DNA from: Naegleria gruberi
Lineage: Eukaryota
Assembly (NCBI GenBank): GCA_000004985.1
Contig: GG738910.1
Strand: one strand, 5' to 3'
Length of the DNA: 64,000 nucleotides
Position numbers and translations under genes: made by a program. Positions 5,601 to 53,528 of the stretch are shown piece by piece. The notes under the pieces were generated by a model. The model was given only the letters and a program-made list of their open reading frames with translations. It was not told the DNA's origin and did not search any database. Position 1 is the stretch's first letter, and every line of letters begins with the position of its first letter.

Positions 5601-7981
5601 NNNNNNNNNNNNNNNNNNNNNNNNNNNNNNNNNNNNNNNNNNNNNNNNNNNNNNNNNNNNNNNNNNNNNNNNNNNNNNNNNNNNNNNNNNNNNNNNNNNN
5701 NNNNNNNNNNNNNNNNNNNNNNNNNNNNNNNNNNNNNNNNNNNNNNNNNNNNNNNNNNNNNNNNNNNNNNNNNNNNNNNNNNNNNNNNNNNNNNNNNNNN
5801 NNNNNNNNNNNNNNNNNNNNNNNNNNNNNNNNNNNNNNNNNNNNNNNNNNNNNNNNNNNNNNNNNNNNNNNNNNNNNNNNNNNNNNNNNNNNNNNNNNNN
5901 NNNNNNNNNNNNNNNNNNNNNNNNNNNNNNNNNNNNNNNNNNNNNNNNNNNNNNNNNNNNNNNNNNNNNNNNNNNNNNNNNNNNNNNNNNNNNNNNNNNN
6001 NNNNNNNNNNNNNNNNNNNNNNNNNNNNNNNNNNNNNNNNNNNNNNNNNNNNNNNNNNNNNNNNNNNNNNNNNNNNNNNNNNNNNNNNNNNNNNNNNNNN
6101 NNNNNNNNNNNNNNNNNNNNNNNNNNNNNNNNNNNNNNNNNNNNNNNNNNNNNNNNNNNNNNNNNNNNNNNNNNNNNNNNNNNNNNNNNNNNNNNNNNNN
6201 NNNNNNNNNNNNNNNNNNNNNNNNNNNNNNNNNNNNNNNNNNNNNNNNNNNNNNNNNNNNNNNNNNNNNNNNNNNNNNNNNNNNNNNNNNNNNNNNNNNN
6301 NNNNNNNNNNNNNNNNNNNNNNNNNNNNNNNNNNNNNNNNNNNNNNNNNNNNNNNNNNNNNNNNNNNNNNNNNNNNNNNNNNNNNNNNNNNNNNNNNNNN
6401 NNNNNNNNNNNNNNNNNNNNNNNNNNNNNNNNNNNNNNNNNNNNNNNNNNNNNNNNNNNNNNNNNNNNNNNNNNNNNNNNNNNNNNNNNNNNNNNNNNNN
6501 NNNNNNNNNNNNNNNNNNNNNNNNNNNNNNNNNNNNNNNNNNNNNNNNNNNNNNNNNNNNNNNNNNNNNNNNNNNNNNNNNNNNNNNNNNNNNNNNNNNN
6601 NNNNNNNNNNNNNNNNNNNNNNNNNNNNNNNNNNNNNNNNNNNNNNNNNNNNNNNNNNNNNNNNNNNNNNNNNNNNNNNNNNNNNNNNNNNNNNNNNNNN
6701 NNNNNNNNNNNNNNNNNNNNNNNNNNNNNNNNNNNNNNNNNNNNNNNNNNNNNNNNNNNNNNNNNNNNNNNNNNNNNNNNNNNNNNNNNNNNNNNNNNNN
6801 NNNNNNNNNNNNNNNNNNNNNNNNNNNNNNNNNNNNNNNNNNNNNNNNNNNNNNNNNNNNNNNNNNNNNNNNNNNNNNNNNNNNNNNNNNNNNNNNNNNN
6901 NNNNNNNNNNNNNNNNNNNNNNNNNNNNNNNNNNNNNNNNNNNNNNNNNNNNNNNNNNNNNNNNNNNNNNNNNNNNNNNNNNNNNNNNNNNNNNNNNNNN
7001 NNNNNNNNNNNNNNNNNNNNNNNNNNNNNNNNNNNNNNNNNNNNNNNNNNNNNNNNNNNNNNNNNNNNNNNNNNNNNNNNNNNNNNNNNNNNNNNNNNNN
7101 NNNNNNNNNNNNNNNNNNNNNNNNNNNNNNNNNNNNNNNNNNNNNNNNNNNNNNNNNNNNNNNNNNNNNNNNNNNNNNNNNNNNNNNNNNNNNNNNNNNN
7201 NNNNNNNNNNNNNNNNNNNNNNNNNNNNNNNNNNNNNNNNNNNNNNNNNNNNNNNNNNNNNNNNNNNNNNNNNNNNNNNNNNNNNNNNNNNNNNNNNNNN
7301 NNNNNNNNNNNNNNNNNNNNNNNNNNNNNNNNNNNNNNNNNNNNNNNNNNNNNNNNNNNNNNNNNNNNNNNNNNNNNNNNNNNNNNNNNNNNNNNNNNNN
7401 NNNNNNNNNNNNNNNNNNNNNNNNNNNNNNNNNNNNNNNNNNNNNNNNNNNNNNNNNNNNNNNNNNNNNNNNNNNNNNNNNNNNNNNNNNNNNNNNNNNN
7501 NNNNNNNNNNNNNNNNNNNNNNNNNNNNNNNNNNNNNNNNNNNNNNNNNNNNNNNNNNNNNNNNNNNNNNNNNNNNNNNNNNNNNNNNNNNNNNNNNNNN
7601 NNNNNNNNNNNNNNNNNNNNNNNNNNNNNNNNNNNNNNNNNNNNNNNNNNNNNNNNNNNNNNNNNNNNNNNNNNNNNNNNNNNNNNNNNNNNNNNNNNNN
7701 NNNNNNNNNNNNNNNNNNNNNNNNNNNNNNNNNNNNNNNNNNNNNNNNNNNNNNNNNNNNNNNNNNNNNNNNNNNNNNNNNNNNNNNNNNNNNNNNNNNN
7801 NNNNNNNNNNNNNNNNNNNNNNNNNNNNNNNNNNNNNNNNNNNNNNNNNNNNNNNNNNNNNNNNNNNNNNNNNNNNNNNNNNNNNNNNNNNNNNNNNNNN
7901 NNNNNNNNNNNNNNNNNNNNNNNNNNNNNNNNNNNNNNNNNNNNNNNNNNNNNNNNNNNNNNNNNNNNNNNNNNNNNNNNN
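2666..7981. other. Assembly gap (5316 N). The three long 'ORFs' spanning it (1781..8020, 2619..8921, complement 2635..8016) are artefacts.
   Basis: Run of n. Probably collapsed repeat or family copies, given the flanking family genes. Confidence 0.99.
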
Positions 7982-9442: not shown

Positions 9443-10429
9443 ATGATGAATAATAACTCGACTTCAAGTTGGATAAATGAATTTTCCTCTACTGCTCATA
9501 CCTGTTCAGTTGATGTTTTTTGTGGAATGGTCTCTCCATCATTCTCCAACAACAAGCCTTCAATAACAATGAACAATACAATTACAGATGATGAATGTAT
9601 TGAACCAAGTCTAAATCTTGATGTTATTGATTTTATTCAGAGTTGGGAATTATTAAAGATGATGACAACTCCAAAGCAACAATTATTTAATAGAAAGCCT
9701 TTTGACAAGCCTTCTATTCACCAAATGTCAGCCTTCAATAATATCCAATGTACTAAAATCACCTCAACTGTTATGAATTCTATTGATGCTGATATTAAGT
9801 GCACTCCATCACACTCATCCACATGCCATATTGTATTACCATCACCAACTGAGACATTATCTCTACTGACACTTAACACCTCACCTCCTCATCAGCAACC
9901 CTTCAATGCTAATACTATTGAAAATAGCCTGACCAATACCATTTCTAATACTGACATTGCTGATAAGGTACTTTTAACCAATTTAGAATCATATCAATTT
10001 CCCAAGAATCCTTATCATGAACATTATGATCAATCACCACCACCATCAAATGATATATCCATGATGCCACTCCAACAACAAACTAATGTAAACAATACAT
10101 TCAACAAGAAGGATGATAATCGTATTCTAAAGAGAAAGAGAAAGATTTCTAATGTATCTTCATTCGAATCAGAAAAGAGAAAAACCTCAATTTCATCCAC
10201 CACACCACCTACAACATGTTCAAGTAATTCATCCTCAATTGGTAATAATAGTTCATTATCAACAAATGTGCACTCACAACAATCATTCAATAATTGTATT
10301 ATAATTTCAAATCCAAAACATTTGAAAAGAAGAAGAAAATATCAAAAGAGAAAGAATTCAGCCAATACAAATCCTGCTCAAACTCAAATGGAATTTCACT
10401 TTCCAGTTTGGACTTTTCATTTAGAATAA
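9443..10429 (+). CDS. Fam2 member a (328 aa): N-terminal MMNNNSTSSWINE...CIEPSLNLDVIDFIQSWELLKMMTTPKQQLFNRKP, S/T/P-rich middle with KRKRKISNVSSFESEKRKTS, C-terminal basic block NPKHLKRRRKYQKRKNSANTNPAQTQMEFHFPVWTFHLE.
   Basis: ATG ORF. Paralogous to 11002, 11657, 15288, 16323 and complement 26260. No recognisable Pfam-type domain. The basic block is NLS-like. Confidence 0.6.
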   Translation: MMNNNSTSSWINEFSSTAHTCSVDVFCGMVSPSFSNNKPSITMNNTITDDECIEPSLNLDVIDFIQSWELLKMMTTPKQQLFNRKPFDKPSIHQMSAFNNIQCTKITSTVMNSIDADIKCTPSHSSTCHIVLPSPTETLSLLTLNTSPPHQQPFNANTIENSLTNTISNTDIADKVLLTNLESYQFPKNPYHEHYDQSPPPSNDISMMPLQQQTNVNNTFNKKDDNRILKRKRKISNVSSFESEKRKTSISSTTPPTTCSSNSSSIGNNSSLSTNVHSQQSFNNCIIISNPKHLKRRRKYQKRKNSANTNPAQTQMEFHFPVWTFHLE

Positions 10430-10486
10430 ATTGTTTTTTTAATAATATTTGTTTTATATTCTCTGTGTGTCCGAATAATTTAATAT

Positions 10487-10592
10487 TCAACAAGATAATT
10501 ATTCATTACCACTTGAAGAAGCAGATAATTTATTAAATATTGAAGATGAACCAATTTTCAATTTTATTGAATTAAATAATGAAAGTGAAAAT
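10487..10592 (+). pseudogene. Orphan 3'-end fragment of a Fam1 gene (copy of 8765-8880, ~90% identity) lacking the terminal SFLF motif. Marks a duplication breakpoint.
   Basis: 'caacaagataattattcattacc...gcagataatttattaaatattgaagatgaa(t/c)caattttcaat...attgaattaaataatgaaagtga' is shared between 8760-8880 and 10487-10592. The same downstream spacer reappears at 11368-11487, immediately after the gap. Confidence 0.55.
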
Positions 10593-11001
10593 AAACTTCT
10601 GTAAAGAATATACAATTTATGATCAAGTAATAGTGAGATTGTATAATTTCGAAATACGATGAACCAGAATTTACCCTAACACTTACTGACATTCTATTAA
10701 GAAGGAGTGCCACAGCTGACGACATGAAAGAACTGTAATTGTTTAAGAGATTTTATTCGCACTGTACAACAATAGAACTATCGTCCGAATTAGTCATGAA
10801 ATCTAGGAATTGTAGATTATTTCTTTCTATTGTTGGGTATTGCTTCAGGATTTTGTATTTTTAAGGACCTCAATTACTAACATTATTCTTCAAGTACATC
10901 AAGTATTGGAAATATGAGAGAATAAATTGGGCGAGATGCAATTCTCTTTGGAGTTTATGCAGAAGAAATATTCAATGAATATTCTCAAAAAAACAAACAT
11001 T

Positions 11002-11317: not shown

Positions 11318-11367
11318 NNNNNNNNNNNNNNNNNNNNNNNNNNNNNNNNNNNNNNNNNNNNNNNNNN
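11318..11367. other. Assembly gap (50 N)
   Basis: Run of n. Confidence 0.99.
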
Positions 11368-13170: not shown

Positions 13171-13677
13171 ATGAATCCAAACAAACAATCGAATAGAAGA
13201 AAGTCTAAAGCACTCAAATTAACTGTTGTCGATTTTTGTTCTTCCAATCCAACATCAACTAGAAGATCTAACAATGATGATGTTGTCGATGATAATTGTA
13301 AAGTAATGACAAGTAAATATACAGAATACTTTTCAAATAATTCAAAGCCTTTCCAAGTCATTTCATTTCCATTCAAGCCTTCGAATACTTGCTCATCTGG
13401 AATTCAAAAACAACCAAAGAAAAAGAGAATTGAATCGCATCATGATGATCAATTTGGTAAAATACAATTTGGTAATAATAATACAGTTTGTAGTGGTGGC
13501 GGAGGTGATGATTCAGTAGTGGCAAGCCTTCATCAAGATCGAATTGAAGAATCGTCTTCTAATGATCAGCAGCAGCCTTCAACACCAACTTTAATTCAAT
13601 CATTACCATCAATGGATAAAAAAAGACAAAGAAGAACCTCAATTACTATTAGAGAATTATTAAATTATGATGATTAA
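13171..13677 (+). CDS. Fam3 member a (168 aa): MNPNKQSNRRKSKALKLTVVDFCSSNPTS...CKVMTSKYTEYFSNNSKPFQVISFP...MDKKRQRRTSITIRELLNYDD.
   Basis: ATG ORF. ~85% identical to complement(26909..27415). Shares the C-terminal R-R-T-[SA]-I-T-x-x-E-L-L-N motif with complement(20797..21369). Confidence 0.55.
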   Translation: MNPNKQSNRRKSKALKLTVVDFCSSNPTSTRRSNNDDVVDDNCKVMTSKYTEYFSNNSKPFQVISFPFKPSNTCSSGIQKQPKKKRIESHHDDQFGKIQFGNNNTVCSGGGGDDSVVASLHQDRIEESSSNDQQQPSTPTLIQSLPSMDKKRQRRTSITIRELLNYDD

Positions 13678-15287: not shown

Positions 15288-15937
15288 TTGTTCAGTATCC
15301 ANNNNNNNNNNNNNNNNNNNNNNNNNNNNNNNNNNNNNNNNNNNNNNNNNNATGTTGATGTACCCTCTCCATTTAATATTCATTGTGGAATAGTCTCTCC
15401 ATCATCAATGTCATCCTCCTCCTCTTCTATCAATACCAGTAACAATGAATTGCCAAGTTTAAATCTTGATATTGTTGATTTTATGCAGAGTTGGAAAATA
15501 TTACAGACAATCAAACAAGTTCATCACCAACAAGATGACAACGCTTTGTTTTTCATTCAGATGAACTAGTGAAAGATCAACAATTAATTAGTTCCTCATT
15601 AGTAGTATTAAACAATTCTGATCACAATGAGGCACTAGAAACGTTTCAACTTCCAACAATATTCACCACCACCAAGAATGAAAATACTACCATGCCCAAT
15701 ATCTCATCAATCTCAAAGAAGAGAAAGATTTCCTCTTCTTCATTCAAATATTATACAAGTCCAAATACAGAAAAGAAAATCTCAATTTCATCCACTACTT
15801 CTTGTATTGATAATTCAAATTCAAAACATTTGAAAAGAAGACGAAAATGTCAAAAGAGAAAGAATTCAGCCTATTCCAATCCAGCACAAACTCAAATGGA
15901 GTTTAATTTTCCAATATGGACTTTTCATATGGAATAA
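15288..15937 (+). pseudogene. Fam2 member d, disrupted: 49-N gap at 15302-15351 and a 2-bp indel relative to copy e around 15555-15565 that splits the reading frame (track ORFs 15288..15569 and 15569..15937). Retains SLNLDIVDFMQSWKIL and ...NSKHLKRRRKCQKRKNSAYSNPAQTQMEFNFPIWTFHME.
   Basis: Alignment by eye with copy e (16323..16928): d has 'gatgacaacgctttgtttttcattcag' where e has 'gatgacatctgctattttcattcaa' (+2 nt in d, in a T-run). Confidence 0.45.
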
Positions 15938-17515: not shown

Positions 17516-18061
17516 TTAATTGTAAAGGAATGAAATTGAACTGAGAAAGCTTTCACAATCATCAAATTCTACTGCTTCTTCTTCTTCTTCTTTTGAAGTA
17601 TTATCACTGCTTCCACTACTACTGCTTCCACCACTACTATTGTTGATTGTTAGTGATGATGATGAATATTCAATATTACTAGATGCATGTTGATTCAAAT
17701 TATTAGTATTATTCATAGTTTTGCATTTAACCTTTGTAATAATTGTATCCTTTACATTTTCACTAGTACCTGATGATAATGATGATGCATTCGAGCAAGT
17801 TGTAATATTTTCTGAAAAAGTATTGTCAGTAGATGCATTTGGTGGATTAATAATTTTGTAAATAGTTAAATCACTTTCTGTTAATTGTTGCTTATCAAAT
17901 TCAAAGTAATTTTTCAGTAAATTATCATTTTGTAATGGTTTTCTCAATCTCGATTGTTTAATTTTCAATTCCTTATTTCTCTTTTTCACTTTTGCTTTCT
18001 TTGTAACATTACTAGTTTCATCAATGAATGACATGTTGTTGGCATTCTGGTTCTTCTTCAT
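17516..18061 (-). CDS. Fam1 member c (181 aa): MKKNQNANNMSFIDETSNVTKKAKVKKRNKELKIKQSRLRKPLQNDNLLKNYFEFDKQQLTESDLTIYKI...EEEEEAVEFDDCESFLSSISFLYN.
   Basis: ATG ORF. Complete set of family motifs. Near-identical tandem paralog at 19195..19758. Confidence 0.6.
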   Translation of the reverse strand: MKKNQNANNMSFIDETSNVTKKAKVKKRNKELKIKQSRLRKPLQNDNLLKNYFEFDKQQLTESDLTIYKIINPPNASTDNTFSENITTCSNASSLSSGTSENVKDTIITKVKCKTMNNTNNLNQHASSNIEYSSSSLTINNSSGGSSSSGSSDNTSKEEEEEAVEFDDCESFLSSISFLYN

Positions 18062-22827: not shown

Positions 22828-23883
22828 ATGAAGAATAATACTAATAGAGTTACTTATAATAGTAATAATAATACTACTACTACTACTACTAATACTAATA
22901 CTTGTACTAATAATAATAATCATGGGATTAGACGGAGTGATTCAAGCAGTAGTAATAGCAACATGTCATTCATTGATGAAACTAGTAATGTTACAATGAA
23001 AGTTAAAGTAAAAAAGAGAAATCATCAATTGAATATTAAACAATCGAGATTGAGAAAACCATTACAAAATGATAATTTACTGAAAAATTACTTTGAATTT
23101 GATAAAAAGCAACAATCAAACGATTTGACTGTTTACAAAATTATTAATACTACTACTACAAATGCTACTAATTCTACCACCAACAACACCAACACCACCA
23201 GTTGTAGTTCTAATAATATTAAAGAGGAAGAAGAAGAAAAGGAAAATTTCATTACAATGAATAACACTATTAATACTATTAATAATAATAATAATGGAAT
23301 TGATAAGAAGATGCATCGATTTGGATGTAGAAAACCAACAATTGATAAAGTTGTTACAACAGAGAAAGTGCAAGTGAGCAAGAATTACAAATCAACAAGT
23401 TTGAATAGTATTGCAACAACAAGTAATACTATTACAAATAATTATTTAAATAATCACAACAATTATATTGGAAATAATCCATTGAAAAGTAATGAAAGAG
23501 TTGAAGAATATCAACAACAATTAGAATATAATAATCGAGTTTATAATGAATTTACTATTAATCATTACAATGATGTAAATAATATGAATCAATTATTTAT
23601 TAATAGTAATAATAATAATACTATTTCATATCCTCTCACTACTACCACAACTACAACTGCTGCTAATTTACCAATTCAACAAGTTTACAATCAACAATTT
23701 AATAATCAATTTAATAATCAATTATCATATTTATGGAATTCTCGAGTCAATTATTCAATTAATAATAGTGATAGTAATAGTAATAATAGTCAAACTAATA
23801 ATTCAAAAGAGGAAGAAGAAGAATTTGATGATTGTAAAAGTTTTCTCAGTTCCATTTCATTTCTATATGATTATCAAAAATAA
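22828..23883 (+). CDS. Fam1 member e (351 aa, long form): N/T-rich leader, then MSFIDETSNVTMKVKVKKRNHQLNIKQSRLRKPLQNDNLLKNYFEFDKKQQSNDLTVYKI, ...FGCRKPTIDKVVTTEKVQV..., ...SKEEEEEFDDCKSFLSSISFLYDYQK.
   Basis: ATG ORF with all three family motifs. The leader may be 5'UTR if translation starts at the MSFIDE Met (~22963). Confidence 0.55.
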   Translation: MKNNTNRVTYNSNNNTTTTTTNTNTCTNNNNHGIRRSDSSSSNSNMSFIDETSNVTMKVKVKKRNHQLNIKQSRLRKPLQNDNLLKNYFEFDKKQQSNDLTVYKIINTTTTNATNSTTNNTNTTSCSSNNIKEEEEEKENFITMNNTINTINNNNNGIDKKMHRFGCRKPTIDKVVTTEKVQVSKNYKSTSLNSIATTSNTITNNYLNNHNNYIGNNPLKSNERVEEYQQQLEYNNRVYNEFTINHYNDVNNMNQLFINSNNNNTISYPLTTTTTTTAANLPIQQVYNQQFNNQFNNQLSYLWNSRVNYSINNSDSNSNNSQTNNSKEEEEEFDDCKSFLSSISFLYDYQK

Positions 23884-24213: not shown

Positions 24214-24673
24214 ATGAAGAAGAATATCAACTCATCACAACATTTTACTGATGAAACTAAAAAGATTGTCAATAATTGTAGGAAGAGGGATGAGAATTTG
24301 AAAAGTCATCGACAACCCAGATTTAAAAAATCATTGAGAAATTCCAACTTTTTAAAGAATTATTTCGAGTTTGAAAGTGGTGATCATTCGAGAGATCAAT
24401 TAACAGTATACAAAATGAGGAATCAAAGTAATAGGCACCAATCAATTGAACATTGTAAGAAAAAAGATTGTTAATATTTCCAAAAATAGTAATTCCATTC
24501 CTGAAGCCTCCAATAATGACTCTTCTGCTTCAATACGAGACTTGCCAATGAATGTTTTCAATTATGAAAATAATATAATGATGATATTCAGCAATTTATT
24601 TAATTCTTCGTCACAGTTACCAAATGTGGAAGACGATGATTGCCAAAGTTTTCTAAGCTCTTTATCATTCTAA
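24214..24673 (+). pseudogene. Divergent Fam1 member f with a reading-frame break near 24445-24475: N-terminal ...FTDETKKIVNN...RQPRFKKSLRNSNFLKNYFEFESGDHSRDQLTVYKM, and a C-terminal part in another frame ending ...EDDDCQSFLSSLSF.
   Basis: Two adjacent track ORFs (24214..24474, 24446..24673) in different frames carry the N- and C-terminal family motifs. I could not find a GT..AG intron with compatible phase (GTAAGA at 24455 with AG at 24488 gives the wrong phase). Confidence 0.4.
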
Positions 24674-24809: not shown

Positions 24810-25370
24810 TCAAATGTTTTGGATTTGANNNNNNNNNNNNNNNNNNNNNNNNNNNNNNNNNNNNNNNNNNNNNNNNNNAAATGATAAATTCATTGGATAT
24901 ATTTCTTTAAATATTGGTAAATGTCTAATACTTTGATAATTTTGGGGCCATGCGTCCAAGCCTAATGAATGTTTCGTCTTGTTAAATCTTCTCTTTAATG
25001 TTGACAAGTGACAGTCCAATATTTTGGCAGCTTGTATTTGAGAGAGGTGTAAAACTCGAATCATTTCTTCATTGGAGATTGCTCTTGCTCTCTTGTATGA
25101 ATTAACAGGAGCTGCACTGAAAAAAGTTCCATATTTAGTTTCTCGTTTCTTCCAATTAAATAGAGAAACAGCTAATGGGCTATTATTATAATTTTCAATA
25201 TTATTATTATGAATGTTATTATTGGTGTTATTGGTAATGGATGTGGTAGTGGAAGATTTGGCAAAAGATATCAAAGTTATTGAAGATAGAGAGCTAGAGT
25301 TGCTATTCGAAAGTTTGCTCGAGTTTAGTTTAGTTGAAGGCTTGGAAATTTTAGATGAGTTTCTATTCAT
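24810..25370 (-). CDS. Small RWP-RK-like protein a (186 aa; Fam4). S/T/N-rich N-terminus. C-terminal ...AISNEEMIRVLHLSQIQAAKILDCHLSTLKRRFNKTKHSLGLDAWPQNYQSIRHLPIF... A 50-N gap at 24829-24878 lies inside the 3' end.
   Basis: ATG ORF. Spacing of L-x-AAK-L-x5-TLKR-x9-G-x3-WP fits the RWP-RK domain (PF02042) consensus, though it reads AWP not RWP. Paralog at 27707..28216. Confidence 0.5.
   Translation of the reverse strand: MNRNSSKISKPSTKLNSSKLSNSNSSSLSSITLISFAKSSTTTSITNNTNNNIHNNNIENYNNSPLAVSLFNWKKRETKYGTFFSAAPVNSYKRARAISNEEMIRVLHLSQIQAAKILDCHLSTLKRRFNKTKHSLGLDAWPQNYQSIRHLPIFKEIYPMNLSFXXXXXXXXXXXXXXXXXQIQNI
24829..24878. other. Assembly gap (50 N)
   Basis: Run of n. Confidence 0.99.
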
Positions 25371-25819
25371 GTTGTTTAGTTGTTTTTTTAAATTGTGTTC
25401 AATCTATTATAAATGGAATTAAGAGTCATGTAATTAGTTCATCAAATCTCTTGTCATACATTGTCAACTGACATTTGGAAGTAAAGTTAGCTATTTCAGA
25501 AACTCGTAGTACAACAAGATTGTAAGAGATCGATTTTTCGTAATGCCAGATTCAAACTGTTTGGTCCATTAAAATTACTTTTTTTGAAGCAGAGACAGTT
25601 TATGGAATTACTCAAAACATTTTGCTCGCTAAAATTTTCCAATACGAGTGAATCATTTCAAAATTGCCTTATTAATACAAAATTGAAAAGTTTAAGAGAA
25701 TATCAATTCAAGTTGATTGTGTCAACAATCTCATTTGTCCGCGTGTAATCGAATCTTTGTTGAATGGAGAGGTTTAGGATGTCTGTTAATTCGAAACAAA
25801 TTTAGTATTCCAATAAAAT

Positions 25820-26260
25820 TTATTCTAAACAATGTGGTGCAAAGTTCTTTAGAAATGTAGAANNNNNNNNNNNNNNNNNNNNNNNNNNNNNNNNNNNNNN
25901 NNNNNNNNNNNNACTGTTATTATCGATTGAAGAAACATCATTACTTGTAGATGATGTAGTGGATGAAATTGAGGTTTTTCTCTTCTTTAATGGTTGAGTG
26001 TTCGATAGCCGTGATGTGTATGAACTATTGTATTGAAAACTTTCTATATTATTAGTTAATAGAGTTGAATTATATTGATTACTACCACTAGCTGCACTCT
26101 CCTCCATCTGGTTGATGCTCATCTCTTGATTAAATATATTATTAATATAATTCATTGTAATATCAGCAGTATTAGTAATTATCTTTAAACATTCCCAACT
26201 TTTCATAAAATCATTAACATCAAGTTGTAATTTAATAGTATTATCATCACACTGATTCAT
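25820..26260 (-). CDS. Fam2 member f (minus strand; ATG at 26260, since the track start at 26332 is TTG): MNQCDDNTIKLQLDVNDFMKSWECLKIITN...KKRKTSISSTTSS... C-terminal region interrupted by the gap at 25862-25912.
   Basis: Retains a degenerate LDV-DFM-SWE-LK motif and a KKRKTS block. Divergent from copies a-e. Confidence 0.4.
   Translation of the reverse strand: MNQCDDNTIKLQLDVNDFMKSWECLKIITNTADITMNYINNIFNQEMSINQMEESAASGSNQYNSTLLTNNIESFQYNSSYTSRLSNTQPLKKRKTSISSTTSSTSNDVSSIDNNSXXXXXXXXXXXXXXXXXSTFLKNFAPHCLE
25862..25912. other. Assembly gap (~51 N)
   Basis: Run of n. Confidence 0.99.
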
Positions 26261-26908
26261 GGTTGATTGATTGTTTTTTTTATAAGTGAGATTTCGTATA
26301 TTCTGTAACTTGATTGGAACTATTTGATACAACTCTGATACAGATTTGTCAAGTTTGGAATCAAATGTGGAATGAATATTAAGGAGTTGCGCTTATGAAC
26401 ACTACAGGAGTGCATTGTTATTGCTCATATCATTGTTATGAATATTTAGTGCGTGCTACAATTATTTATCTCTTCATTGTAAGATGGTGATTATATCACT
26501 TATCATTAATAATATTACGTTCACATTTTAAAAAGTAAATTGGTGATTCTCTAAAGGAAACTAATATATTATTCGATAAAAGAGTCACTGAAGAGAGAAA
26601 GGAGGTTTCACGGAATTATTGAATTACAGTAACTGTAGATTCTGAATACTTTTCCTTACTTACCATTAACTGTGATTAAGGATCTTTAAACCACTCTCTA
26701 TATTATTTACAATCCCAAACTTTATAAAATAAATCACCAAAACATTAAAGATGAATTGTTCATAATGGTTCGAATAGGTTGAACAACACTCAATGTGCAG
26801 TTGTTCCTAGTAGTTCCGAAATCAATGCTCATCATCTCTTTGTTTTCTTTTATCATTATTAGTGAAACTAACTATTAATAATTGTTGTACAGTTTATTAA
26901 GGTTAATG

Positions 26909-27415
26909 TTAATCATCATAATTTAATAATTCTCTTATAGTAATTGATGTTCTTCGTTGTCTCTTTTTATCAATTGGTGATGATTGAATTGAAGTTGGTG
27001 TTGAAGGCTGTTGGTGCTGATCATTAGATTCTTCAATTCTATCTTGATGAAGGCTTGCCACCGAATCATCACCTCCGCCACTACTGACCATTGTATTATT
27101 ATTACCATATTGATCATTTTGCTGATGCAGTGCCATTCTCTTATTCTTTCTAATTCTTGTTGAGTCATCTTTCTGAAGCGTTTTGAATTGTGTTGGTTTG
27201 CATGGAAATGAAATGACTTGGAAAGGCTTTGAATTATTTGAAAAGTATTCTGTATATTTACTTGTCATTACTTTACAATTATCATCAACAACATCAGCAT
27301 GATCATTGTTAGATCTTCTTCTAGTTGATGATGTTGGATTGGAAGAACAAAAATCGACAACAGTTAATTTGAGTGCTTTTGCCTTTCTTCTATTCGATTG
27401 TTTGTTTGGATTCAT
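26909..27415 (-). CDS. Fam3 member b (168 aa), paralog of 13171..13677, ending IDKKRQRRTSITIRELLNYDD
   Basis: ATG ORF. ~85% aa identity with copy a across the full length. Confidence 0.55.
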   Translation of the reverse strand: MNPNKQSNRRKAKALKLTVVDFCSSNPTSSTRRRSNNDHADVVDDNCKVMTSKYTEYFSNNSKPFQVISFPCKPTQFKTLQKDDSTRIRKNKRMALHQQNDQYGNNNTMVSSGGGDDSVASLHQDRIEESNDQHQQPSTPTSIQSSPIDKKRQRRTSITIRELLNYDD

Positions 27416-27706
27416 TGGTTATAATATTCTAGTTGTGTGTTGTCTTTGGGTGATACGTGTTGTTTCGTTTCGTTTTGTGAAATTGTTACTGATAAAGATT
27501 GCAGATTTCATCGAAATATTTTGCTCTTTTTTCCCAAAACGGCAATTTTTCAAAAAAGAACCCTTGTTGATATATATAAATCTCCACTAAAAGTATAAGC
27601 AAAACAGCGTATGTGTTGATAATGTTGAATAGATAATTTATTCCCCTCATGGGGTAGTTTACTTCAATTTGATAAGAACTGCAATTATTATTCAGAATAT
27701 TGTAAA

Positions 27707-28216
27707 CTATTTGGAATCTTTATTTAAAATAAATGATAAATTCATTGGATATATTTCTTTAAATATTGGTAAATGTCTAATACTTTGATAATTTTGAGGC
27801 CATGCGTCCAAGCCTAATGAATGTTTCGTCTTGTTAAATCTTCTCTTTAATGTTGACAAGTGACAGTCCAATATTTTGGCAGCTTGTATTTGAGAGAGGT
27901 GTAAAACTCGAATCATTTCTTCATTGGAGATTGCTCTCTTGTATGAATTAACAGGAGCTGCACTGAAAAAAGTTCCATATTTAGTTTCACGTTTCTTCCA
28001 ATTAAATAGAGAAACAGCTAATGGGCTATTATTATAATTTTCAATATTCGTATTGTTATTATTTTTATGGGTATTATTGGGAATGGATGTGGTGGTGGAA
28101 GATTTGGCAAAAGATATCAAAGTTATTGAAGATAGCGAGCTAGAGCTTCTATTCGAAAGTTTGTTGGAGTTTAGTTTAGTTGAAGGCTTGGAAATTTTAG
28201 ATGGTTTTCTATTCAT
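27707..28216 (-). CDS. Small RWP-RK-like protein b (169 aa; Fam4), intact copy
   Basis: ATG ORF. C-terminal 110 aa essentially identical to 24810..25370. The ~170-bp 5' flank (28300-28470) is also duplicated at 25440-25610. Confidence 0.55.
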   Translation of the reverse strand: MNRKPSKISKPSTKLNSNKLSNRSSSSLSSITLISFAKSSTTTSIPNNTHKNNNNTNIENYNNSPLAVSLFNWKKRETKYGTFFSAAPVNSYKRAISNEEMIRVLHLSQIQAAKILDCHLSTLKRRFNKTKHSLGLDAWPQNYQSIRHLPIFKEIYPMNLSFILNKDSK

Positions 28217-28852
28217 GTTGTTTAGCTATTTTTTTAAATTGTGTTCAGTACATTTGCAGCATCTCTTATAAATGTAATGAAAGTGGCTTTCAATAGTTCA
28301 TCAAATCTCTTGTCATACATTGTCAAGTGACATTTGGAAATATGGTTAGCTATTTCAGAAACTCGTAGTACAACAAGATTGTAAGAGATCAATTTTTTGG
28401 TAATGCCAGATTTAACTGTTTGGTTCATTACAATTACTATTTTTGAAGCAGACAAGTTTATGGAAAGAAATCACATAATTGCCTTATTAATACTAAATGA
28501 AGAAGAATATCAATGCATGTTGAATGTGTCAACAATCATTTGTCCGCGTATATTCGAATCTTTAGGACCGTCATTAAGGATGATTGAATATTCAATGTAT
28601 GCTGTTGCCAAAACTTAAAAATTTTACAAGTCGTCAACAACCTTACTCAGTAGAAACAAGTTCAAATCTGAAAGAAATCGATTGTCCAGGATACAATTTC
28701 AAATAGCTATCCTCTACAGAAATATTCAACAAACAAGCAAGAACTTCCTATATTTATTCGAAACTGAAAGTCTTCTAAGGAAGATTTCATTGTAAAGTTT
28801 TAAGAGAGAATGACTTTGAATCTTCAATAATCTAAAGAAAACTTTGAACAAA

Positions 28853-29560
28853 ATGCCCAAACACAATCCACCTCTCTTCATTAAAGATAATTCTCAACTT
28901 GCCGCACACAAGTACATTGCCAAGGAACATGATCCGAACTATTCTTATGACAATTATTACGATTATTATGATTATTATGATTATTATGATGATGATTGGT
29001 ATTATGATGATTATGAAGACGACAATGATGAAATTGTCAAAAATATTTATAATTGGCGATGTTTAAATAAGAAATGTAATGATTTTCAAGTGGAGGAAGA
29101 AAATTATCCATTTTATCATTCACAATTGAATAAGATGTATTCTCAAAATAGAAATATTTCAATGCTGAATACTCAATTGAGTGATACGAGAAGTTTGTTG
29201 GCTATTTTCCCAAAGAGAATTTGTTCAAAGGCTAAAACATTTCAATACTTGTTCATGTATGAGATTAAGTGGATGTTAATTGATTGGGAGAGGAAGAAAA
29301 TGAGAATTATTTCACCATTGACTTATCCCATATATAGAGATGAATTGGAAGTTTCACTTTCATTCAAACTTTGTAGAAGAACGAGTTGGAATTCTCAATT
29401 AGTTTTCCCTTTTGAAATGAATGGAGGATTCAGTGATGGAGTTTTATTTAATTGTGGACAACAGACACAGCTTACTAATGAGGAAATTAATAATTATTCA
29501 CCATCTGCAATTTATCTGGGTTCGATCAAATGGAGAAATTATTGTTTCAGAAACAGGTAG
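28853..29560 (+). CDS. Hypothetical protein with an acidic Tyr/Asp repeat (DNYYDYYDYYDYYDDDWYYDDYEDDNDE). May be the 5' part of the downstream NHL-repeat gene.
   Basis: ORF from ATG 28853 (track start 28844 is TTG). No domain recognised. Its 3' end overlaps the NHL-repeat reading frame. Confidence 0.3.
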   Translation: MPKHNPPLFIKDNSQLAAHKYIAKEHDPNYSYDNYYDYYDYYDYYDDDWYYDDYEDDNDEIVKNIYNWRCLNKKCNDFQVEEENYPFYHSQLNKMYSQNRNISMLNTQLSDTRSLLAIFPKRICSKAKTFQYLFMYEIKWMLIDWERKKMRIISPLTYPIYRDELEVSLSFKLCRRTSWNSQLVFPFEMNGGFSDGVLFNCGQQTQLTNEEINNYSPSAIYLGSIKWRNYCFRNR

Positions 29561-33437: not shown

Positions 33438-33965
33438 TTAACTTCCCTTTATTTCTGCCTCAAAATGCACAGCCTGGCACCAAGGTCTAACACTTGAACA
33501 GTGAGTAACTATTATTCTGGTATGATTGATGAGTGTACTCATGGCATCTTTGAAATCAATGAAAATGTTTTTGAAAGAATAACAATCTTTGGATCCATCA
33601 CATGGACATCTGAATAATTCCCTAGAGCTGTAATCATCACGACATTGAAGACTAAAGATGAAATATGTGCATTCTCCTTCAAATTTTGGTAAATTATCAA
33701 TTCTGACCGATAGCTTGTTGCCATATCTCAACAAATCATCAATATTCACGTCTGGTCCAATTTCTCTATCATTTGAAAAATCAACAAAATCATAATTGAT
33801 GGAAATTCTCACTCTTGTTCTAGCATACAAATGAACCAACGAGCTCGTAGTTTGTTTGATAATTTGTTCATTTTCGTGCATGTCTACATCATCTTCAAAA
33901 CATGCCACATCATCAAAAGGGTCATTGTTATTGAGCATTTCTGTAGAGTGATAGGAGGATTGCAT
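33438..33965 (-). CDS. Uncharacterised protein, tandem paralog A (175 aa)
   Basis: ATG ORF. Shares -EIGPDVNIDDLL[KR]YGNK-...-NLP-F[KE]GE-T[FY]F[VI]F-...-F[RK]C..GDGSK-...-FIDF[TK]DAM..LI...RI[VI].[VT]H.S..RP-...-FEA...G with 34397..34954. Confidence 0.45.
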   Translation of the reverse strand: MQSSYHSTEMLNNNDPFDDVACFEDDVDMHENEQIIKQTTSSLVHLYARTRVRISINYDFVDFSNDREIGPDVNIDDLLRYGNKLSVRIDNLPKFEGECTYFIFSLQCRDDYSSRELFRCPCDGSKDCYSFKNIFIDFKDAMSTLINHTRIIVTHCSSVRPWCQAVHFEAEIKGS

Positions 33966-34396: not shown

Positions 34397-34954
34397 TTAT
34401 TTTCCACTTACTTTAGCTTCAAATAGAACTGAGTGATACAGTGGTCTATGAATTGATCCATGTACCATGACAATTCTACTTTGTTTGATGAGTACATTCA
34501 TAGCATCTGTGAAATCAATGAAAAATCTCTTGATTGTCATCTTACTCTTTGATCCGTCACCATTGCAATATCTGAATATTTCCCTGAATTGCCAATCTTC
34601 AAAGTTTTGAACGTAGAAAACGAAGAAAGTTTTCTCTCCTTTGAATATTGGCAAGTTTCTGATGGAGGCAGATGACTTATTGCCGTACTTTAACAAATCG
34701 TCAATGTTCACATCTGGTCCAATTTCATTCTCATTGCTCAAGCTTACTGGATCAAAATTAATTCCCAATTCAACCGTAGTTTGGTTGTACTTGTCAAGGA
34801 ATGGACAGTGGGATGGCAAGATAATTTGGCTATTGATTGGAGTGCTTGGGTTCTCTTGTGTTCTATCATCAAACAACTCGCAATTTCCTTCACTTTCATG
34901 TTGATGATAGGGAATTAAGGGATGATTCAAATCCTCTTGTTCTTCTAATTCCAT
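34397..34954 (-). CDS. Uncharacterised protein, tandem paralog B (~186 aa from ATG 34954; the track start at 34981 is GTG)
   Basis: As above: ~45% identity to paralog A over the C-terminal 130 aa. Confidence 0.45.
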   Translation of the reverse strand: MELEEQEDLNHPLIPYHQHESEGNCELFDDRTQENPSTPINSQIILPSHCPFLDKYNQTTVELGINFDPVSLSNENEIGPDVNIDDLLKYGNKSSASIRNLPIFKGEKTFFVFYVQNFEDWQFREIFRYCNGDGSKSKMTIKRFFIDFTDAMNVLIKQSRIVMVHGSIHRPLYHSVLFEAKVSGK

Positions 34955-35868
34955 TAATGTTTTGTTTTTTTTCAAGTTCACTGTTTGATTGATGTAACTT
35001 AATTAAGGAAGGAAAATTGTTGGCTTTGGAGCCGTTGTTGAGAATCTAAACTATAAAAGGTCAATAAAATTTTGTTAAACTGTTTTAGGGATTGAATTTG
35101 AAGATGCATTTCTTATCTCTGTAAAGTAGAGACGAATTGTGAACATACATCACATGACCAATGTTCACAACGCTCCATTACCCTAGTACTTTATTGATCA
35201 GTTTGAATTACATAACAGATATACAATTTCTGTTTTTTTCATCACCATTTTAAAAATTACAAAAAGGTCCTCTCCTAGAATTTGCTTACATGGGTATCTT
35301 GTTTGCTGCAAGAAATTACATAATATTCAAGAAGAGTATTATCTTTCGCCATGAATTCAAGTCAATCAAACTCAATTGTTGCAATGTTGTAGGCAGAATT
35401 TGATGTATTGGCTCAAAATTGGTTGTGCGGTAATTACCAGATCAGTTCATTAATGATTACAAACTTTAAATAGATGTTTATCCATTTTGCAAGCTTTACT
35501 TTCTATTTCAATTTTGGAAGTTTCCAACTCTCTTTCAATCATTGTGTTGGGTAACTTCTTTGCGCTTGTTAAGAAATTCAACAAACCAATTTTAAAAAAT
35601 AATCTTACAAGGGGATGCTGTTCATTAAATCATCATGAATTTATTATTTATTAATTGTTGTTAAATAGAGCCGATATTTCATGATTTATCATACCATAAG
35701 GATCATGATCAAAATGTCATGGTAATTTGCCCAACTGGATGACATACCAAACTGGAACCTCCAGTTCATCTGCTTACAGAATCAAGAAATTCAAACTGGA
35801 AACATCGATTAGATTACCAAACGGAAATCATGTTGATGATAACCAATTGATTTTAAAAACAAATTGTG

Positions 35869-52136: not shown

Positions 52137-53528
52137 ATGCAAAGACTTGTCACATGGATTCTTGTTTGTCTGTGCTTGGTGACTTGTAATGCAAATATGG
52201 CTAGTGGTGTTGAGCAGAACAGGAATGTGAGAAAATATCATAATAATATCAAAGCTGGGAGCACTTCATCATATGTTCAGCCTGGCATTAATAATTCTTT
52301 ACAACCTCTGTTTGGACATAATATTGGATTAATTACTAACCCGTCTGGACAAAATTATCAATTATCACAATCAACAATTGATTTACTGATGGAGTTGACA
52401 AAACAGGGCTATTTGAATTTGGTTGCACTTTTTGCTCCCGAACATGGAATTTATGGTGACAAGCCTCCAGGGCAATTCTTTAATGATTATATTGACCCAT
52501 ACACTAAATTACCTGTTTATAGTTTATATAGTGAAACTAATCCGACTCATGAACCACTTCCTTACATGTTGAAAAATGTTACAATGCTAGTTTCGGATAT
52601 TCAAGATGTTGGAATGAGACCTTTCACGTTCATTAGTACAATGTGTGAAGGATTAATTGGAGCAAAGAAAAATTCAATCAAGTTCACAGTTTTGGATAGA
52701 ATTAATTATTTGAATGGAAACATTATAGCTGGTCCAATTTTGAATATGAAATACAAAAGTTTTATTGGAATTTATAAATTACCAATTGTAACTGGTATGA
52801 CTATGGGCGAATTGGCTCTATTGTTTGACAAGGAAATGTATATTAATTTAGACAATGATCTAACAATTATTCCAATAGTAGATGATAGTTCTCAAACCTA
52901 CGGGAAATACAGACCTTCATTCAGAGAAATAAGACAAGTATTCAGACAACCAATATTATATCTACCACCAAGTCCAAATTTGCCAACAATAGAAAGTGTA
53001 GAGTTGTACTCTGGAATGGTCTTGTTTGAAAGTCTGTTCAACATATCTATTGGAAGAGGAACAACAAATCCATTCCAAGTCATTGGTTCTCCATTCATTG
53101 ATTCAAGAAAATGGATGAGCTTTTTGCAACAAGAATTTGCTACAGAACTATCTCTCTATTTCAAATACGTTCAGCTTTCATATCCCACTTATTTTATTCC
53201 ATCTCTTGATATCCACCAGAATGCTCCATGTGAGGGAATTCGTTTAGTGTTAAAACCACTCGATTACAACAATATTACAAACATTGAAGAGTACTATAGA
53301 AGCTTTTTACCCCTCTCTCTTACCCTCATGAAATCTTTACTCAAACTTTACGGAAAGGAATTGCTAATTTGGAGAACTGATTTTGCTCATATTCTCATTG
53401 GATCTGAAGAAACAATATCACAAATATTGGACAATTCTGTGACAGTGGGAGAGATTGTCAATTCATGGAATAAGGATCTTGTCAAGTTCGACAAGAATGT
53501 CAGGCAAAAGTATTTAATTTACAAATGA
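52137..53528 (+). CDS. Secreted DUF1343 / NamZ-like protein (463 aa) with N-terminal signal peptide. Bacterial-type exo-beta-N-acetylmuramidase family.
   Basis: Family motifs: IGLITNPSGQN, LVALFAPEHGIYGD, LPVYSLYSETNPTHEPLPYML, MLVSDIQDVGMRPFTFISTM, FTVLDRINYLNG, IYKLPIVTGMTMGELALLFDKE. Signal peptide MQRLVTWILVCLCLVTCNA. Confidence 0.6.
   Translation: MQRLVTWILVCLCLVTCNANMASGVEQNRNVRKYHNNIKAGSTSSYVQPGINNSLQPLFGHNIGLITNPSGQNYQLSQSTIDLLMELTKQGYLNLVALFAPEHGIYGDKPPGQFFNDYIDPYTKLPVYSLYSETNPTHEPLPYMLKNVTMLVSDIQDVGMRPFTFISTMCEGLIGAKKNSIKFTVLDRINYLNGNIIAGPILNMKYKSFIGIYKLPIVTGMTMGELALLFDKEMYINLDNDLTIIPIVDDSSQTYGKYRPSFREIRQVFRQPILYLPPSPNLPTIESVELYSGMVLFESLFNISIGRGTTNPFQVIGSPFIDSRKWMSFLQQEFATELSLYFKYVQLSYPTYFIPSLDIHQNAPCEGIRLVLKPLDYNNITNIEEYYRSFLPLSLTLMKSLLKLYGKELLIWRTDFAHILIGSEETISQILDNSVTVGEIVNSWNKDLVKFDKNVRQKYLIYK

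What the first reader, a model, noticed from the sequence alone, without database searches (positions are those of the whole stretch)
24810..28216. Pair of small RWP-RK-like proteins bracketing Fam2/Fam3 copies
The two ~170-186-aa proteins end in a region that fits the RWP-RK DNA-binding domain spacing: ISNEEMIRVLHLSQIQAAKILDCHLSTLKRRFNKTKHSLGLDAWP. The invariant R of RWP is replaced by A. Small RWP-RK proteins of this size are known as cell-type or mating-type determinants in green algae (MID), and as NLP/RKD regulators in plants. Here two copies, each with its own duplicated promoter, sit in inverted-cluster context with three other expanded families of putative nuclear proteins. They could be the DNA-binding component of whatever this gene cluster does. 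The R>A change makes it worth testing whether DNA binding is retained.
Basis: partly seen in the sequence, partly recalled or inferred. Interest (0 to 1): 0.55.

Follow-up and report, generated by a model that had tools for sequence, protein, structure and literature searches.

The report
Divergent RWP-RK-type regulator gene pair
Two recently duplicated small genes of the amoeba Naegleria gruberi encode a divergent helix-turn-helix domain related to the plant and algal RWP-RK transcription factors; they belong to a large, so far undescribed Naegleria-group subfamily, and the "missing arginine" that drew attention is normal variation within it.

Summary
The window is Naegleria gruberi, not a dictyostelid. 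Copy 2 (27707-28216, minus strand) is an intact 169-aa gene, NAEGRDRAFT_74024. Copy 1 (24879-25370) is real, but its 3' end lies in a 50-N assembly gap, so "186 aa" is an artefact.

The copies are direct repeats of about 915 bp, including about 430 bp upstream. They bracket one family-B and one family-C orphan gene.

Pfam ranks RWP-RK first, but below threshold (17.7 bits against 29.3). Homology is nevertheless firm:
- Paralogs pass the threshold.
- A subfamily profile finds a plant NLP and UniProt-labelled RWP-RK proteins.
- hhalign gives 99.7% probability.

The proteins belong to a subfamily of about 45 clusters; every named member is from Naegleria or Willaertia. It has a 4-residue insertion in helix 3, no RK, and a conserved tail (IYPMSLxFILN).

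In this subfamily the residue before WP is non-basic in 24% of clusters. The two closest paralogs have S and T there. R>A is therefore neither unique nor evidence of lost DNA binding.

The predicted fold is a confident beta-hairpin plus HTH. A MID-like role, or a functional link to the neighbouring families, has no support so far.

The parts
27707..28216 (-). Copy 2: an intact single-exon gene of 169 aa plus stop. It is NAEGRDRAFT_74024 (EFC38205.1, UniProt D2VY83), annotated only as 'predicted protein'.
   Evidence: ORF. It is 100% identical to P0001; accession numbers are. An environmental contig, L004, matches this locus at 97.5% over 931 nt.
27722..28009 (-). Folded domain of copy 2, residues 70-165. 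It comprises a beta-hairpin (73-86, with the conserved W73), a three-helix HTH (98-104, 109-115, 120-134), the WP turn, and three short helices that carry IYPMNLSFILN.
   Evidence: AlphaFold2 with a 44-sequence alignment gives block pLDDT of 78-97 over residues 71-160. W73 is invariant among 8 small paralogs. All invariant subfamily positions are retained.
27797..27931 (-). RWP-RK-homologous core, residues 96-140 (ISNEEMIRVLHLSQIQAAKILDCHLSTLKRRFNKTKHSLGLDAWP). The presumed recognition helix is STLKRRF. There is a 4-residue insertion relative to the canonical domain.
   Evidence: Pfam alignment covers residues 96-141 against model positions 2-43. hhalign places a 4-column gap here, probability 99.7%.
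27803..27805 (-). Codon GCA for Ala138, the position of the R in RWP. In copy 1 the equivalent codon is at 24951-24953.
   Evidence: Read directly from the sequence.
24879..25370 (-). Copy 1: the first 164 codons of a paralog. It has a 2-codon 'RA' insertion and 13 substitutions in the low-complexity N-terminus. The 3' end is missing in the gap. No annotated protein for it turned up in these searches.
   Evidence: Across the domain there are 0 non-synonymous and 1 synonymous differences.
24829..24878 (.). 50-N scaffold gap that truncates copy 1 and creates the spurious 186-aa ORF.
25371..25795 (-). Duplicated 5' flank of copy 1. It is homologous to 28217-28600 and contains 43-, 13- and 8-nt indels.
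28217..28600 (-). Duplicated 5' flank of copy 2.
   Evidence: The environmental contig L004 matches 340 of 348 nt here.
25820..26332 (-). Family-B orphan gene between the copies, interrupted by a second 50-N gap (25863-25912). Its stop-codon context (TTTAGAATAAATT) lies on the same small contig as copy 1.
26909..27415 (-). Family-C orphan gene between the copies: NAEGRDRAFT_74023, 168 aa. It is 67% identical to the ORF at 13171-13677.
   Evidence: No Pfam hit.

Best explanation
The two ORFs are recent tandem (direct) duplicates of a Naegleria gruberi gene for a small nuclear regulator.

Each protein has a disordered Ser/Asn/Thr-rich N-terminus of about 67 residues, followed by a compact basic domain of about 95 residues. 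That domain is a beta-hairpin, then a helix-turn-helix homologous to the RWP-RK domain, then a conserved tail specific to the subfamily.

Inferred mechanism: helix 3 (STLKRRF, with its invariant K-R-R) lies in the DNA major groove, as in other HTH factors. The invariant W-P is a buried structural turn. The C-terminal IYPMNLSFILN helices pack on the HTH, taking the place of the canonical RK helix.

The Ala before WP is one of many tolerated residues in this subfamily and is offset by extra basic residues in helix 3. The proteins are therefore most likely still sequence-specific DNA binders, possibly with altered specificity or affinity.

Shown: homology, duplication, conservation and predicted fold. 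Inferred: DNA binding, nuclear role and target genes.
For: Identity and annotation.

Homology to RWP-RK:
- Best Pfam hit for all 8 of 8 close relatives.
- Paralogs at or above the gathering score.
- The exhaustive profile search finds 153 proteins, including UniProt-labelled RWP-RK proteins and a plant NLP.
- hhalign probability 99.7%.

Fold:
- The AF2 domain is confident, with 67 residues at pLDDT 90 or above.

Constraint:
- Every invariant subfamily position (Q109, A112, S121, K124, R125, F127, W139, P140, P157) is retained.
- The domain shows 0 non-synonymous changes between the copies.
- An independent environmental allele differs by only 1 nt in 240 across the domain and keeps DAWP.

Tolerance of a non-basic residue before WP:
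- 11 of 45 clusters have one.
- The nearest paralogs have S and T.
- The 11 residues between RRF and WP carry net charge +1, tied for highest of 46 members, whose mean is -0.78.

Published support: W and P are buried, and the R is less conserved outside plants (PMC7399023).
Against: - The window proteins themselves fail the Pfam gathering score (17.7 bits against 29.3).
- They lack both halves of the eponymous motif.
- They carry six substitutions unique in the subfamily, or nearly so (S119H, Y128N, E129K, L130T, K/R138A, S159N). Three of these sit in helix 3, which could mean relaxed constraint or a changed function.
- There are no expression or binding data.
Confidence: 0.7

Rival explanations
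1. The proteins do not bind DNA on their own. Instead they act as small partner or competitor subunits that pair with longer members of the same family, in the way algal MID redirects the RWP-RK factor VSR1. The divergent helix 3 and the lost basic residue would then reflect reduced DNA contact.
For: - The protein is small (169 aa), with the domain at the C-terminus, like MID.
- Unique substitutions cluster in helix 3 and at the pre-WP position.
- Many longer paralogs (200-740 aa) exist in the same genomes.
- MID-VSR1 heterodimers are documented (bioRxiv 10.1101/2023.03.26.534280).
Against: - The K-R-R of helix 3 and all other invariant positions are kept.
- The helix-3 segment is more basic than in most relatives, not less.
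- MID binds VSR1 through its N-terminal domain, not its RWP-RK domain. The N-terminus here is low-complexity and predicted to be disordered.
Confidence: 0.15
2. The 'pair' is partly an assembly artefact. The 984-bp contig that carries copy 1 (24879-25862, with gaps on both sides) would be a divergent haplotype or a misplaced repeat copy, not a second gene at this position.
For: - The contig is about the size of a single sequencing read and is flanked by two 50-N gaps.
- About 915 of its 984 bp are homologous to the copy-2 region.
- N. gruberi is reported to be heterozygous (PMC9928731).
- The cluster is rich in repeats and gaps.
Against: - Copy 1 matches the environmental contig L004 at only 86% (with 11 gap openings) and differs from copy 2 by several indels. 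L004 matches copy 2 at 97.5%. That is too divergent for an ordinary allele.
- The contig's other end carries the stop-codon context of a family-B gene, in the right frame and orientation to continue the B gene beyond the gap. Its placement is therefore coherent.
Confidence: 0.12
3. The genes are decaying lineage-specific duplicates with no function, or are on the way to becoming pseudogenes.
For: - They lie in an AT-rich, fast-evolving orphan-gene cluster.
- They score lower against the Pfam RWP-RK model than every paralog scanned here (17.7 bits, against 27.3 and 29.0 for the nearest paralogs).
- They carry several unique substitutions.
- No ortholog was found in N. fowleri or Willaertia; the closest hits are 55-64% identical paralogs.
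Against: - ORFs are intact in copy 2, in the visible part of copy 1 and in the environmental allele.
- pN/pS is 0.36 overall and 0 in the domain.
- All invariant residues are retained.
- The predicted fold is confident.
Confidence: 0.05

Closest known systems
RWP-RK domain transcription factors (Pfam PF02042: plant NLP/NIN and RKD, algal NIT2 and MID)
   Same: - Homologous HTH core: hhalign 99.7%, and the best Pfam hit.
- Shared LSxxxAAxxLGVSxSTLKR signature and invariant W-P.
- Predicted three-helix HTH.
   Different: - No RWPxRK: the sequence is AWPQNY.
- A 4-residue insertion between LKR and WP.
- The helix that carries RK is replaced by a conserved IRHLPIFxxIYPMxLxFILN tail.
- An N-terminal beta-hairpin is predicted.
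- No PB1 or GAF-like domain.
- The score is below the Pfam gathering threshold.
Heterolobosean RWP-RK-like expansion (for example N. gruberi NAEGRDRAFT_70555, 70553, 71777, 71772, 72001 and 80184; N. fowleri FDP41_006133 and 006135; Willaertia magna ABK040_009551)
   Same: - The window proteins are full members of this group.
- Same 17-residue spacing, invariant residues and C-terminal tail.
- A W-containing N-terminal hairpin motif shared with 70555 and 70553.
- These genes often occur as local pairs.
   Different: - The window proteins score lower against the Pfam RWP-RK model than any paralog scanned here.
- They have unique changes at S119H, Y128N, E129K, L130T and S159N.
- They are the only cluster with Ala before WP.
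Volvocine MID (minus-dominance mating-type/sex determinant)
   Same: Small protein with a C-terminal RWP-RK-type domain, and fast-evolving.
   Different: - No orthology was shown.
- There is no evidence of haplotype-limited inheritance.
- The MID N-terminal domain, which contacts VSR1, has no counterpart here.
- A sexual cycle has not been observed in Naegleria.
Bacterial LuxR/FixJ/GerE-type and Fis-type HTH domains
   Same: These are the best structural matches for the predicted core (DegU, DosR, NarL, GerE). The plant RWP-RK fold has likewise been compared with Fis.

Membership tests
RWP-RK domain (Pfam PF02042) | Whole-protein HMM score at or above the curated gathering score (29.3 bits) | tested here: not met
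   17.7 bits (copy 2) and 17.9 bits (copy 1), E about 0.003. The paralog P0002 scores 29.6 bits. 13 of 44 subfamily members reach about that level.
RWP-RK domain (Pfam PF02042) | Homology of the domain to canonical RWP-RK domains | tested here: met
   hhalign gives 99.7% probability, E 2.8e-25, over 46 columns. The subfamily profile retrieves a plant NLP and UniProt-labelled RWP-RK proteins.
RWP-RK domain (Pfam PF02042) | The RWPxRK motif | tested here: not met
   The sequence is D-A-W-P-Q-N-Y. Only W-P is kept. RK is absent from all 45 subfamily clusters.
RWP-RK domain (Pfam PF02042) | Canonical spacing between the LKR of helix 3 and WP | tested here: not met
   17 residues against 13, a 4-residue insertion.
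RWP-RK domain (Pfam PF02042) | Helix-turn-helix fold | tested here: inconclusive
RWP-RK domain (Pfam PF02042) | Sequence-specific DNA binding | not testable with these tools
   This needs EMSA, PBM or DAP-seq.
Heterolobosean 'xWP + IYPMSLxFILN' subfamily (defined here) | 17-residue spacing, invariant Q/A/S/K/R/F/W/P/P positions, and the C-terminal tail at a fixed distance | tested here: met
   Profile score is 145.9 bits, E 2.4e-38, across the whole library. All nine invariant positions are retained. The tail IYPMNLSFILN is present.
Heterolobosean 'xWP + IYPMSLxFILN' subfamily (defined here) | Restriction to Heterolobosea | tested here: inconclusive
   Nine of the 10 subfamily clusters looked up carry names, all N. 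gruberi, N. fowleri or Willaertia magna. The broader tier also includes Acrasis kona. The remaining clusters come from unnamed metagenome contigs.
MID-type mating-type determinant | Small protein with a C-terminal RWP-RK domain | tested here: met
   169 aa, with the domain at residues 70-165.
MID-type mating-type determinant | Orthology to MID, or an N-terminal VSR1-interaction domain | not tested
   No MID sequence was compared. The N-terminus is low-complexity and predicted to be disordered. All close relatives are heterolobosean.
MID-type mating-type determinant | Presence in only one mating-type haplotype, and control of gamete identity | not testable with these tools
   This needs population resequencing and genetics. 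Mating has not been observed in Naegleria (PMC9928731).
NLP/NIN subfamily | C-terminal PB1 domain and an N-terminal nitrate-responsive region | tested here: not met
   No PB1 or any other domain was found by Pfam.

The most novel reading that the evidence does not exclude
The heterolobosean 'xWP' proteins could be a distinct, undescribed class of RWP-RK-derived DNA-binding domain (beta-hairpin, extended HTH, IYPMSLxFILN tail, no RK).

Within it, small, rapidly duplicating, strain-variable members such as this pair could be cell-type or mating-type determinants. They sit in a gap-rich, N. gruberi-specific orphan-gene cluster. That would give a first molecular handle on the never-observed sexual cycle of Naegleria.
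Probability: 0.06. Interest if true: 0.75.

Novelty: new variant of a known kind. Interest (0 to 1): 0.33.

Why it matters
RWP-RK factors are usually described as plant, algal and slime-mould regulators of nitrogen responses and gamete identity. In this library only three papers mention them together with Naegleria, and one of those states they were known only from plants and Dictyostelium (PMC8296547).

This finding shows that Naegleria and its relatives carry a large, structurally modified branch of the family:
- About 45 clusters at 50% identity have the full tail, and more than 100 further relatives were found.
- Standard domain thresholds partly miss this branch; the window genes, for instance, are annotated only as 'predicted protein'.

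That matters for transcription-factor catalogues of Heterolobosea, including the pathogen N. fowleri. It also matters for understanding which residues of the RWP-RK domain are really essential: W-P and K-R-R are, while R and RK are not.

The specific R>A change is not in itself remarkable.

Tried and rejected
1. Better match to another HTH family. PucR HTH_30, Xre-like, sigma-70 region 4 and Mga all scored below RWP-RK, and none was consistent across relatives.

2. Sequence search of solved structures with the protein and with the profile. No RWP-RK structure was found. The only hits were an archaeal GINS chain (E 0.0017 over 29 residues, judged spurious) and a weak NtrC/Fis HTH match.

3. Hidden third copy, or a downstream exon that would make family C an RWP-RK gene. 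A six-frame HMM scan of the window found only the two copies.

4. Relationship of families A, B and C to the RWP-RK set. phmmer found none.

5. Conserved co-clustering of A, B and C with RWP-RK-like genes elsewhere.
   - They are absent from the N. fowleri locus.
   - Family A occurs only on this scaffold and one 8.9-kb scaffold.

6. A shared cis-motif upstream of the cluster genes. No non-trivial 9-mer is shared by three or more families. This was a crude test.

7. Genomic context of the N. gruberi paralogs. The N. gruberi contigs are not in the look-up index.

8. The AFDB fold library was unavailable.
Full report
**What is in the sequence**

- Copy 2 (27707-28216) is a clean 169-codon ORF. 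It is 100% identical to the annotated Naegleria gruberi protein NAEGRDRAFT_74024 (EFC38205.1, UniProt D2VY83, 'predicted protein'), which lies on a 243,952-bp scaffold. The window is therefore a heterolobosean amoeba, not a dictyostelid.
- Copy 1 is real but incomplete. A 50-N scaffold gap at 24829-24878 removes its last codons.
- The '186 aa' ORF starting at 24810 comes from translating the Ns. Only 164 codons (24879-25370) are visible.
- The two proteins are 92% identical (147/160).

**The duplication**

- The copies are direct repeats, not inverted.
- The unit is about 915 bp: 24879-25795 against 27731-28600. It covers the coding region and about 430 bp of 5' flank. That flank is about 88% identical and has 43-, 13- and 8-nt indels. 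The 'duplicated promoter' observation therefore holds.
- Divergence is uneven:

| Region | pS | pN |
|---|---|---|
| Low-complexity N-terminus | 0.125 | 0.055 |
| Domain | 0.024 (one synonymous change) | 0 |
| Whole gene (pN/pS) | 0.36 | |

- Copy 1 sits on a 984-bp contig between two gaps, which raises the question of mis-assembly. Two points argue for a true paralog in roughly this place.
  - Copy 1 is much more diverged from copy 2 than an ordinary allele would be. An independent environmental contig (L004, ENA ERZ929261) matches the copy-2 locus at 97.5% over 931 nt but matches copy 1 at only 86%.
  - The other end of the small contig carries the stop-codon context of the family-B gene that continues beyond the second gap.
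- Only long reads can settle this.

**Surroundings**

- Positions 134-29560 form an AT-richer (GC 0.27-0.31 against 0.33-0.37), gap-rich cluster of small low-complexity genes. They fall into paralogous families:
  - A: six copies, one of them frameshifted.
  - B: five copies plus a fragment.
  - C: two or three copies.
  - D: the RWP-RK-like pair.
- A, B and C have no Pfam match and no detectable relation to the RWP-RK set.
- Family A occurs only in N. gruberi, on this scaffold and on one 8.9-kb scaffold.
- Beyond 30 kb the genes are ordinary: protein kinase, SH3, RCC1, ankyrin/VWA, PAS-adenylate cyclase and a NamZ-like muramidase.

**Is it an RWP-RK domain?**

- On hmmscan alone the answer is borderline. 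RWP-RK is the top hit for both copies, but at E 0.003 and 17.7-17.9 bits, below the 29.3-bit gathering score.
- Deeper searches make the homology firm.
  - The N. gruberi paralog P0002 scores 29.6 bits, which passes the threshold. Its C-terminal 77 residues are 62% identical to copy 2.
  - All eight close relatives have RWP-RK as their best family.
  - 13 of 44 subfamily members reach about the gathering level, and no other family does.
  - A profile of the C-terminal 80 residues, searched exhaustively against 1.84 billion representatives, found 153 proteins at E of 1e-3 or better.
  - Those hits include proteins that UniProt labels 'RWP-RK domain-containing' in N. gruberi and Acrasis kona. 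They also include a plant NLP with three RWP-RK domains and a PB1 domain.
  - hhalign of the subfamily against canonical-spacing domains gives 99.7% probability, E 2.8e-25, with a single 4-column gap in helix 3.

**The subfamily**

The hits fall into two tiers.

- *Tier 1:* about 45 clusters at 50% identity match the entire profile.
  - They share a fixed 17-residue spacing from STLKRRF to WP, against the canonical 13.
  - RK is completely absent; aromatic or hydrophobic residues follow WPx.
  - They carry a conserved tail, EIRHLPIFxxIYPMSLxFILN.
  - Every named member is from N. gruberi, N. fowleri or Willaertia magna.
- *Tier 2:* this tier matches only the HTH part.
  - It contains more heteroloboseans, including Acrasis kona.
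  - It mostly has canonical spacing and R or K before WP (80 of 81).
  - It often carries a [LMIV]x[FY][ILV][LVM]N motif at variable distance downstream: 31 of 81 proteins, against 0.1 expected from shuffles.
- In the paper library only three papers mention RWP-RK together with Naegleria. One states the family was previously known only from plants and Dictyostelium (PMC8296547). The expansion therefore seems not to have been described.

**The R>A issue**

- In tier 1 the residue before WP is K 21, R 13, Q 5, T 2, and A, C, S, H 1 each. That is 24% non-basic.
- The window protein's closest full-length paralogs are NAEGRDRAFT_70555 and 70553. They share an N-terminal W[KR][KR]x[DE]TxxGxFF motif with it and have S and T at this position. 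Loss of the basic residue therefore predates the duplication in the window.
- The oomycete study likewise reports that R1 and K6 of the motif are less conserved, and that W and P are buried (PMC7399023).
- The window protein keeps every invariant subfamily position, including K124-R125-R126 of helix 3.
- Its unusual features lie elsewhere: S119H, Y128N, E129K, L130T and S159N.
- These changes make the segment between RRF and WP net +1, tied for highest of 46 members, whose mean is -0.78. The surface has not lost positive charge.

**Structure**

- AlphaFold2 with 44 sequences gives a confident domain, with block pLDDT of 78-97 over residues 71-160. Its elements are:
  - a beta-hairpin (73-78 and 81-86),
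  - three helices (98-104, 109-115, 120-134),
  - the WP turn,
  - three short helices through the tail.
- Residues 1-67 are predicted to be disordered.
- No RWP-RK structure has been solved. An earlier structural comparison likened the plant domain to Fis.

**Mechanism and rivals**

- Best reading (confidence 0.7): the pair are small HTH transcription regulators of the RWP-RK lineage that still bind DNA through helix 3. WP and the tail would serve as structural elements.
- Rivals:
  - A partner or competitor subunit, in the manner of MID-VSR1. The retained KRR and the basic helix 3 argue against this.
  - Partial assembly artefact (see the duplication section above).
  - Non-functional decay. 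Intact ORFs in three sequences and zero non-synonymous change in the domain argue against this.
- Nothing supports a functional link to families A, B and C:
  - They are absent from the N. fowleri locus, where two subfamily genes flank a UDG gene.
  - No upstream motif is shared.
- A mating-type reading is not excluded, but it rests only on analogy.

**Verdict**

- The RWP-RK assignment is right in the sense of homology, but the eponymous motif, the canonical spacing and the Pfam threshold are all not met.
- The stress on an 'invariant R' is misplaced.
- The more interesting result is the heterolobosean subfamily itself.

Noticed in passing
window 134-29560: An AT-richer, gap-rich cluster of N. 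gruberi-only orphan gene families. N runs lie at 1633-1682, 2666-7981, 11318-11367, 15302-15351, 24829-24878 and 25863-25912. Family A has copies at 134, 8190, 17516(-), 19195(-), 22828 and 24214. Family B has copies at 9443, 10936, 11591, 15692, 16323 and 25820(-). Family C has copies at 13171 and 26909(-), and possibly 20797(-). None has a Pfam match. Family A shares a strongly conserved block of about 60 aa (MSFIDETSNVT...IKQSRLRKPLQNDNLLKNYFEFDK...DLTxYKI), and its homologs occur only on this scaffold and one 8.9-kb scaffold.
   Followed up: partly
window 24214-24673 (+): This family-A copy is split into two overlapping ORFs in different frames (24214-24474 and 24446-24673). It is either a frameshifted pseudogene or a gene with a short intron.
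   Followed up: no
C-termini of window ORFs 17516-18061(-), 22828-23883(+), 26909-27415(-), 27707-28216(-): Unrelated families end in similar short hydrophobic motifs followed by acidic or polar residues: A ends ...SFLSSISFLYN, C ends ...ITIRELLNYDD, and D ends ...LSFILNKDSK. Among the broader heterolobosean RWP-RK-like proteins, a [LMIV]x[FY][ILV][LVM]N motif follows WP in 31 of 81, against 0.1 expected. This may be a shared short linear motif, for example for binding a co-regulator. That idea is untested.
   Followed up: partly
L003 (N. fowleri VFQX01000051.1) 6045-7236 and 10001-10627; N. gruberi NAEGRDRAFT_70553/70555 and 71772/71777: Subfamily members repeatedly occur as nearby pairs on one scaffold. 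In N. fowleri the pair flanks a uracil-DNA glycosylase gene. Local duplication therefore seems to be the usual way this family expands.
   Followed up: partly
L004 (ENA ERZ929261, k127_18269) 1-931: An environmental metagenome contig is 97.5% identical to the copy-2 locus, but it carries the 6-nt 'RA' insertion otherwise seen only in copy 1. This hints at gene conversion or recombination between the copies. The same sample also yields another subfamily member, P0003, which has C before WP.
   Followed up: partly
window 24879-25085 vs 27731-27937: The part of both copies that encodes the domain is nearly identical: the repeat tool reports 100% over 207 nt, and the alignment shows 1 synonymous difference. 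The rest of the gene and the flank are 88-93% identical. This is compatible with gene conversion or with strong constraint. The counts are too small to decide.
   Followed up: partly
window 52137-53528 (+): This ORF has full-length matches to the bacterial exo-beta-N-acetylmuramidase NamZ N- and C-terminal domains (E 1e-58 and 3e-28). It may be a bacterial-type gene acquired by the amoeba.
   Followed up: no
window 33438-33965 (-) and 34397-34981 (-): Tandem paralogs, 46% identical, with no Pfam match.
   Followed up: no
window 28844-29560 (+): This ORF, immediately upstream of copy 2, contains an acidic, tyrosine-rich run (YDYYDYYDYYDDDWYYDDYEDD). No family was assigned.
   Followed up: no
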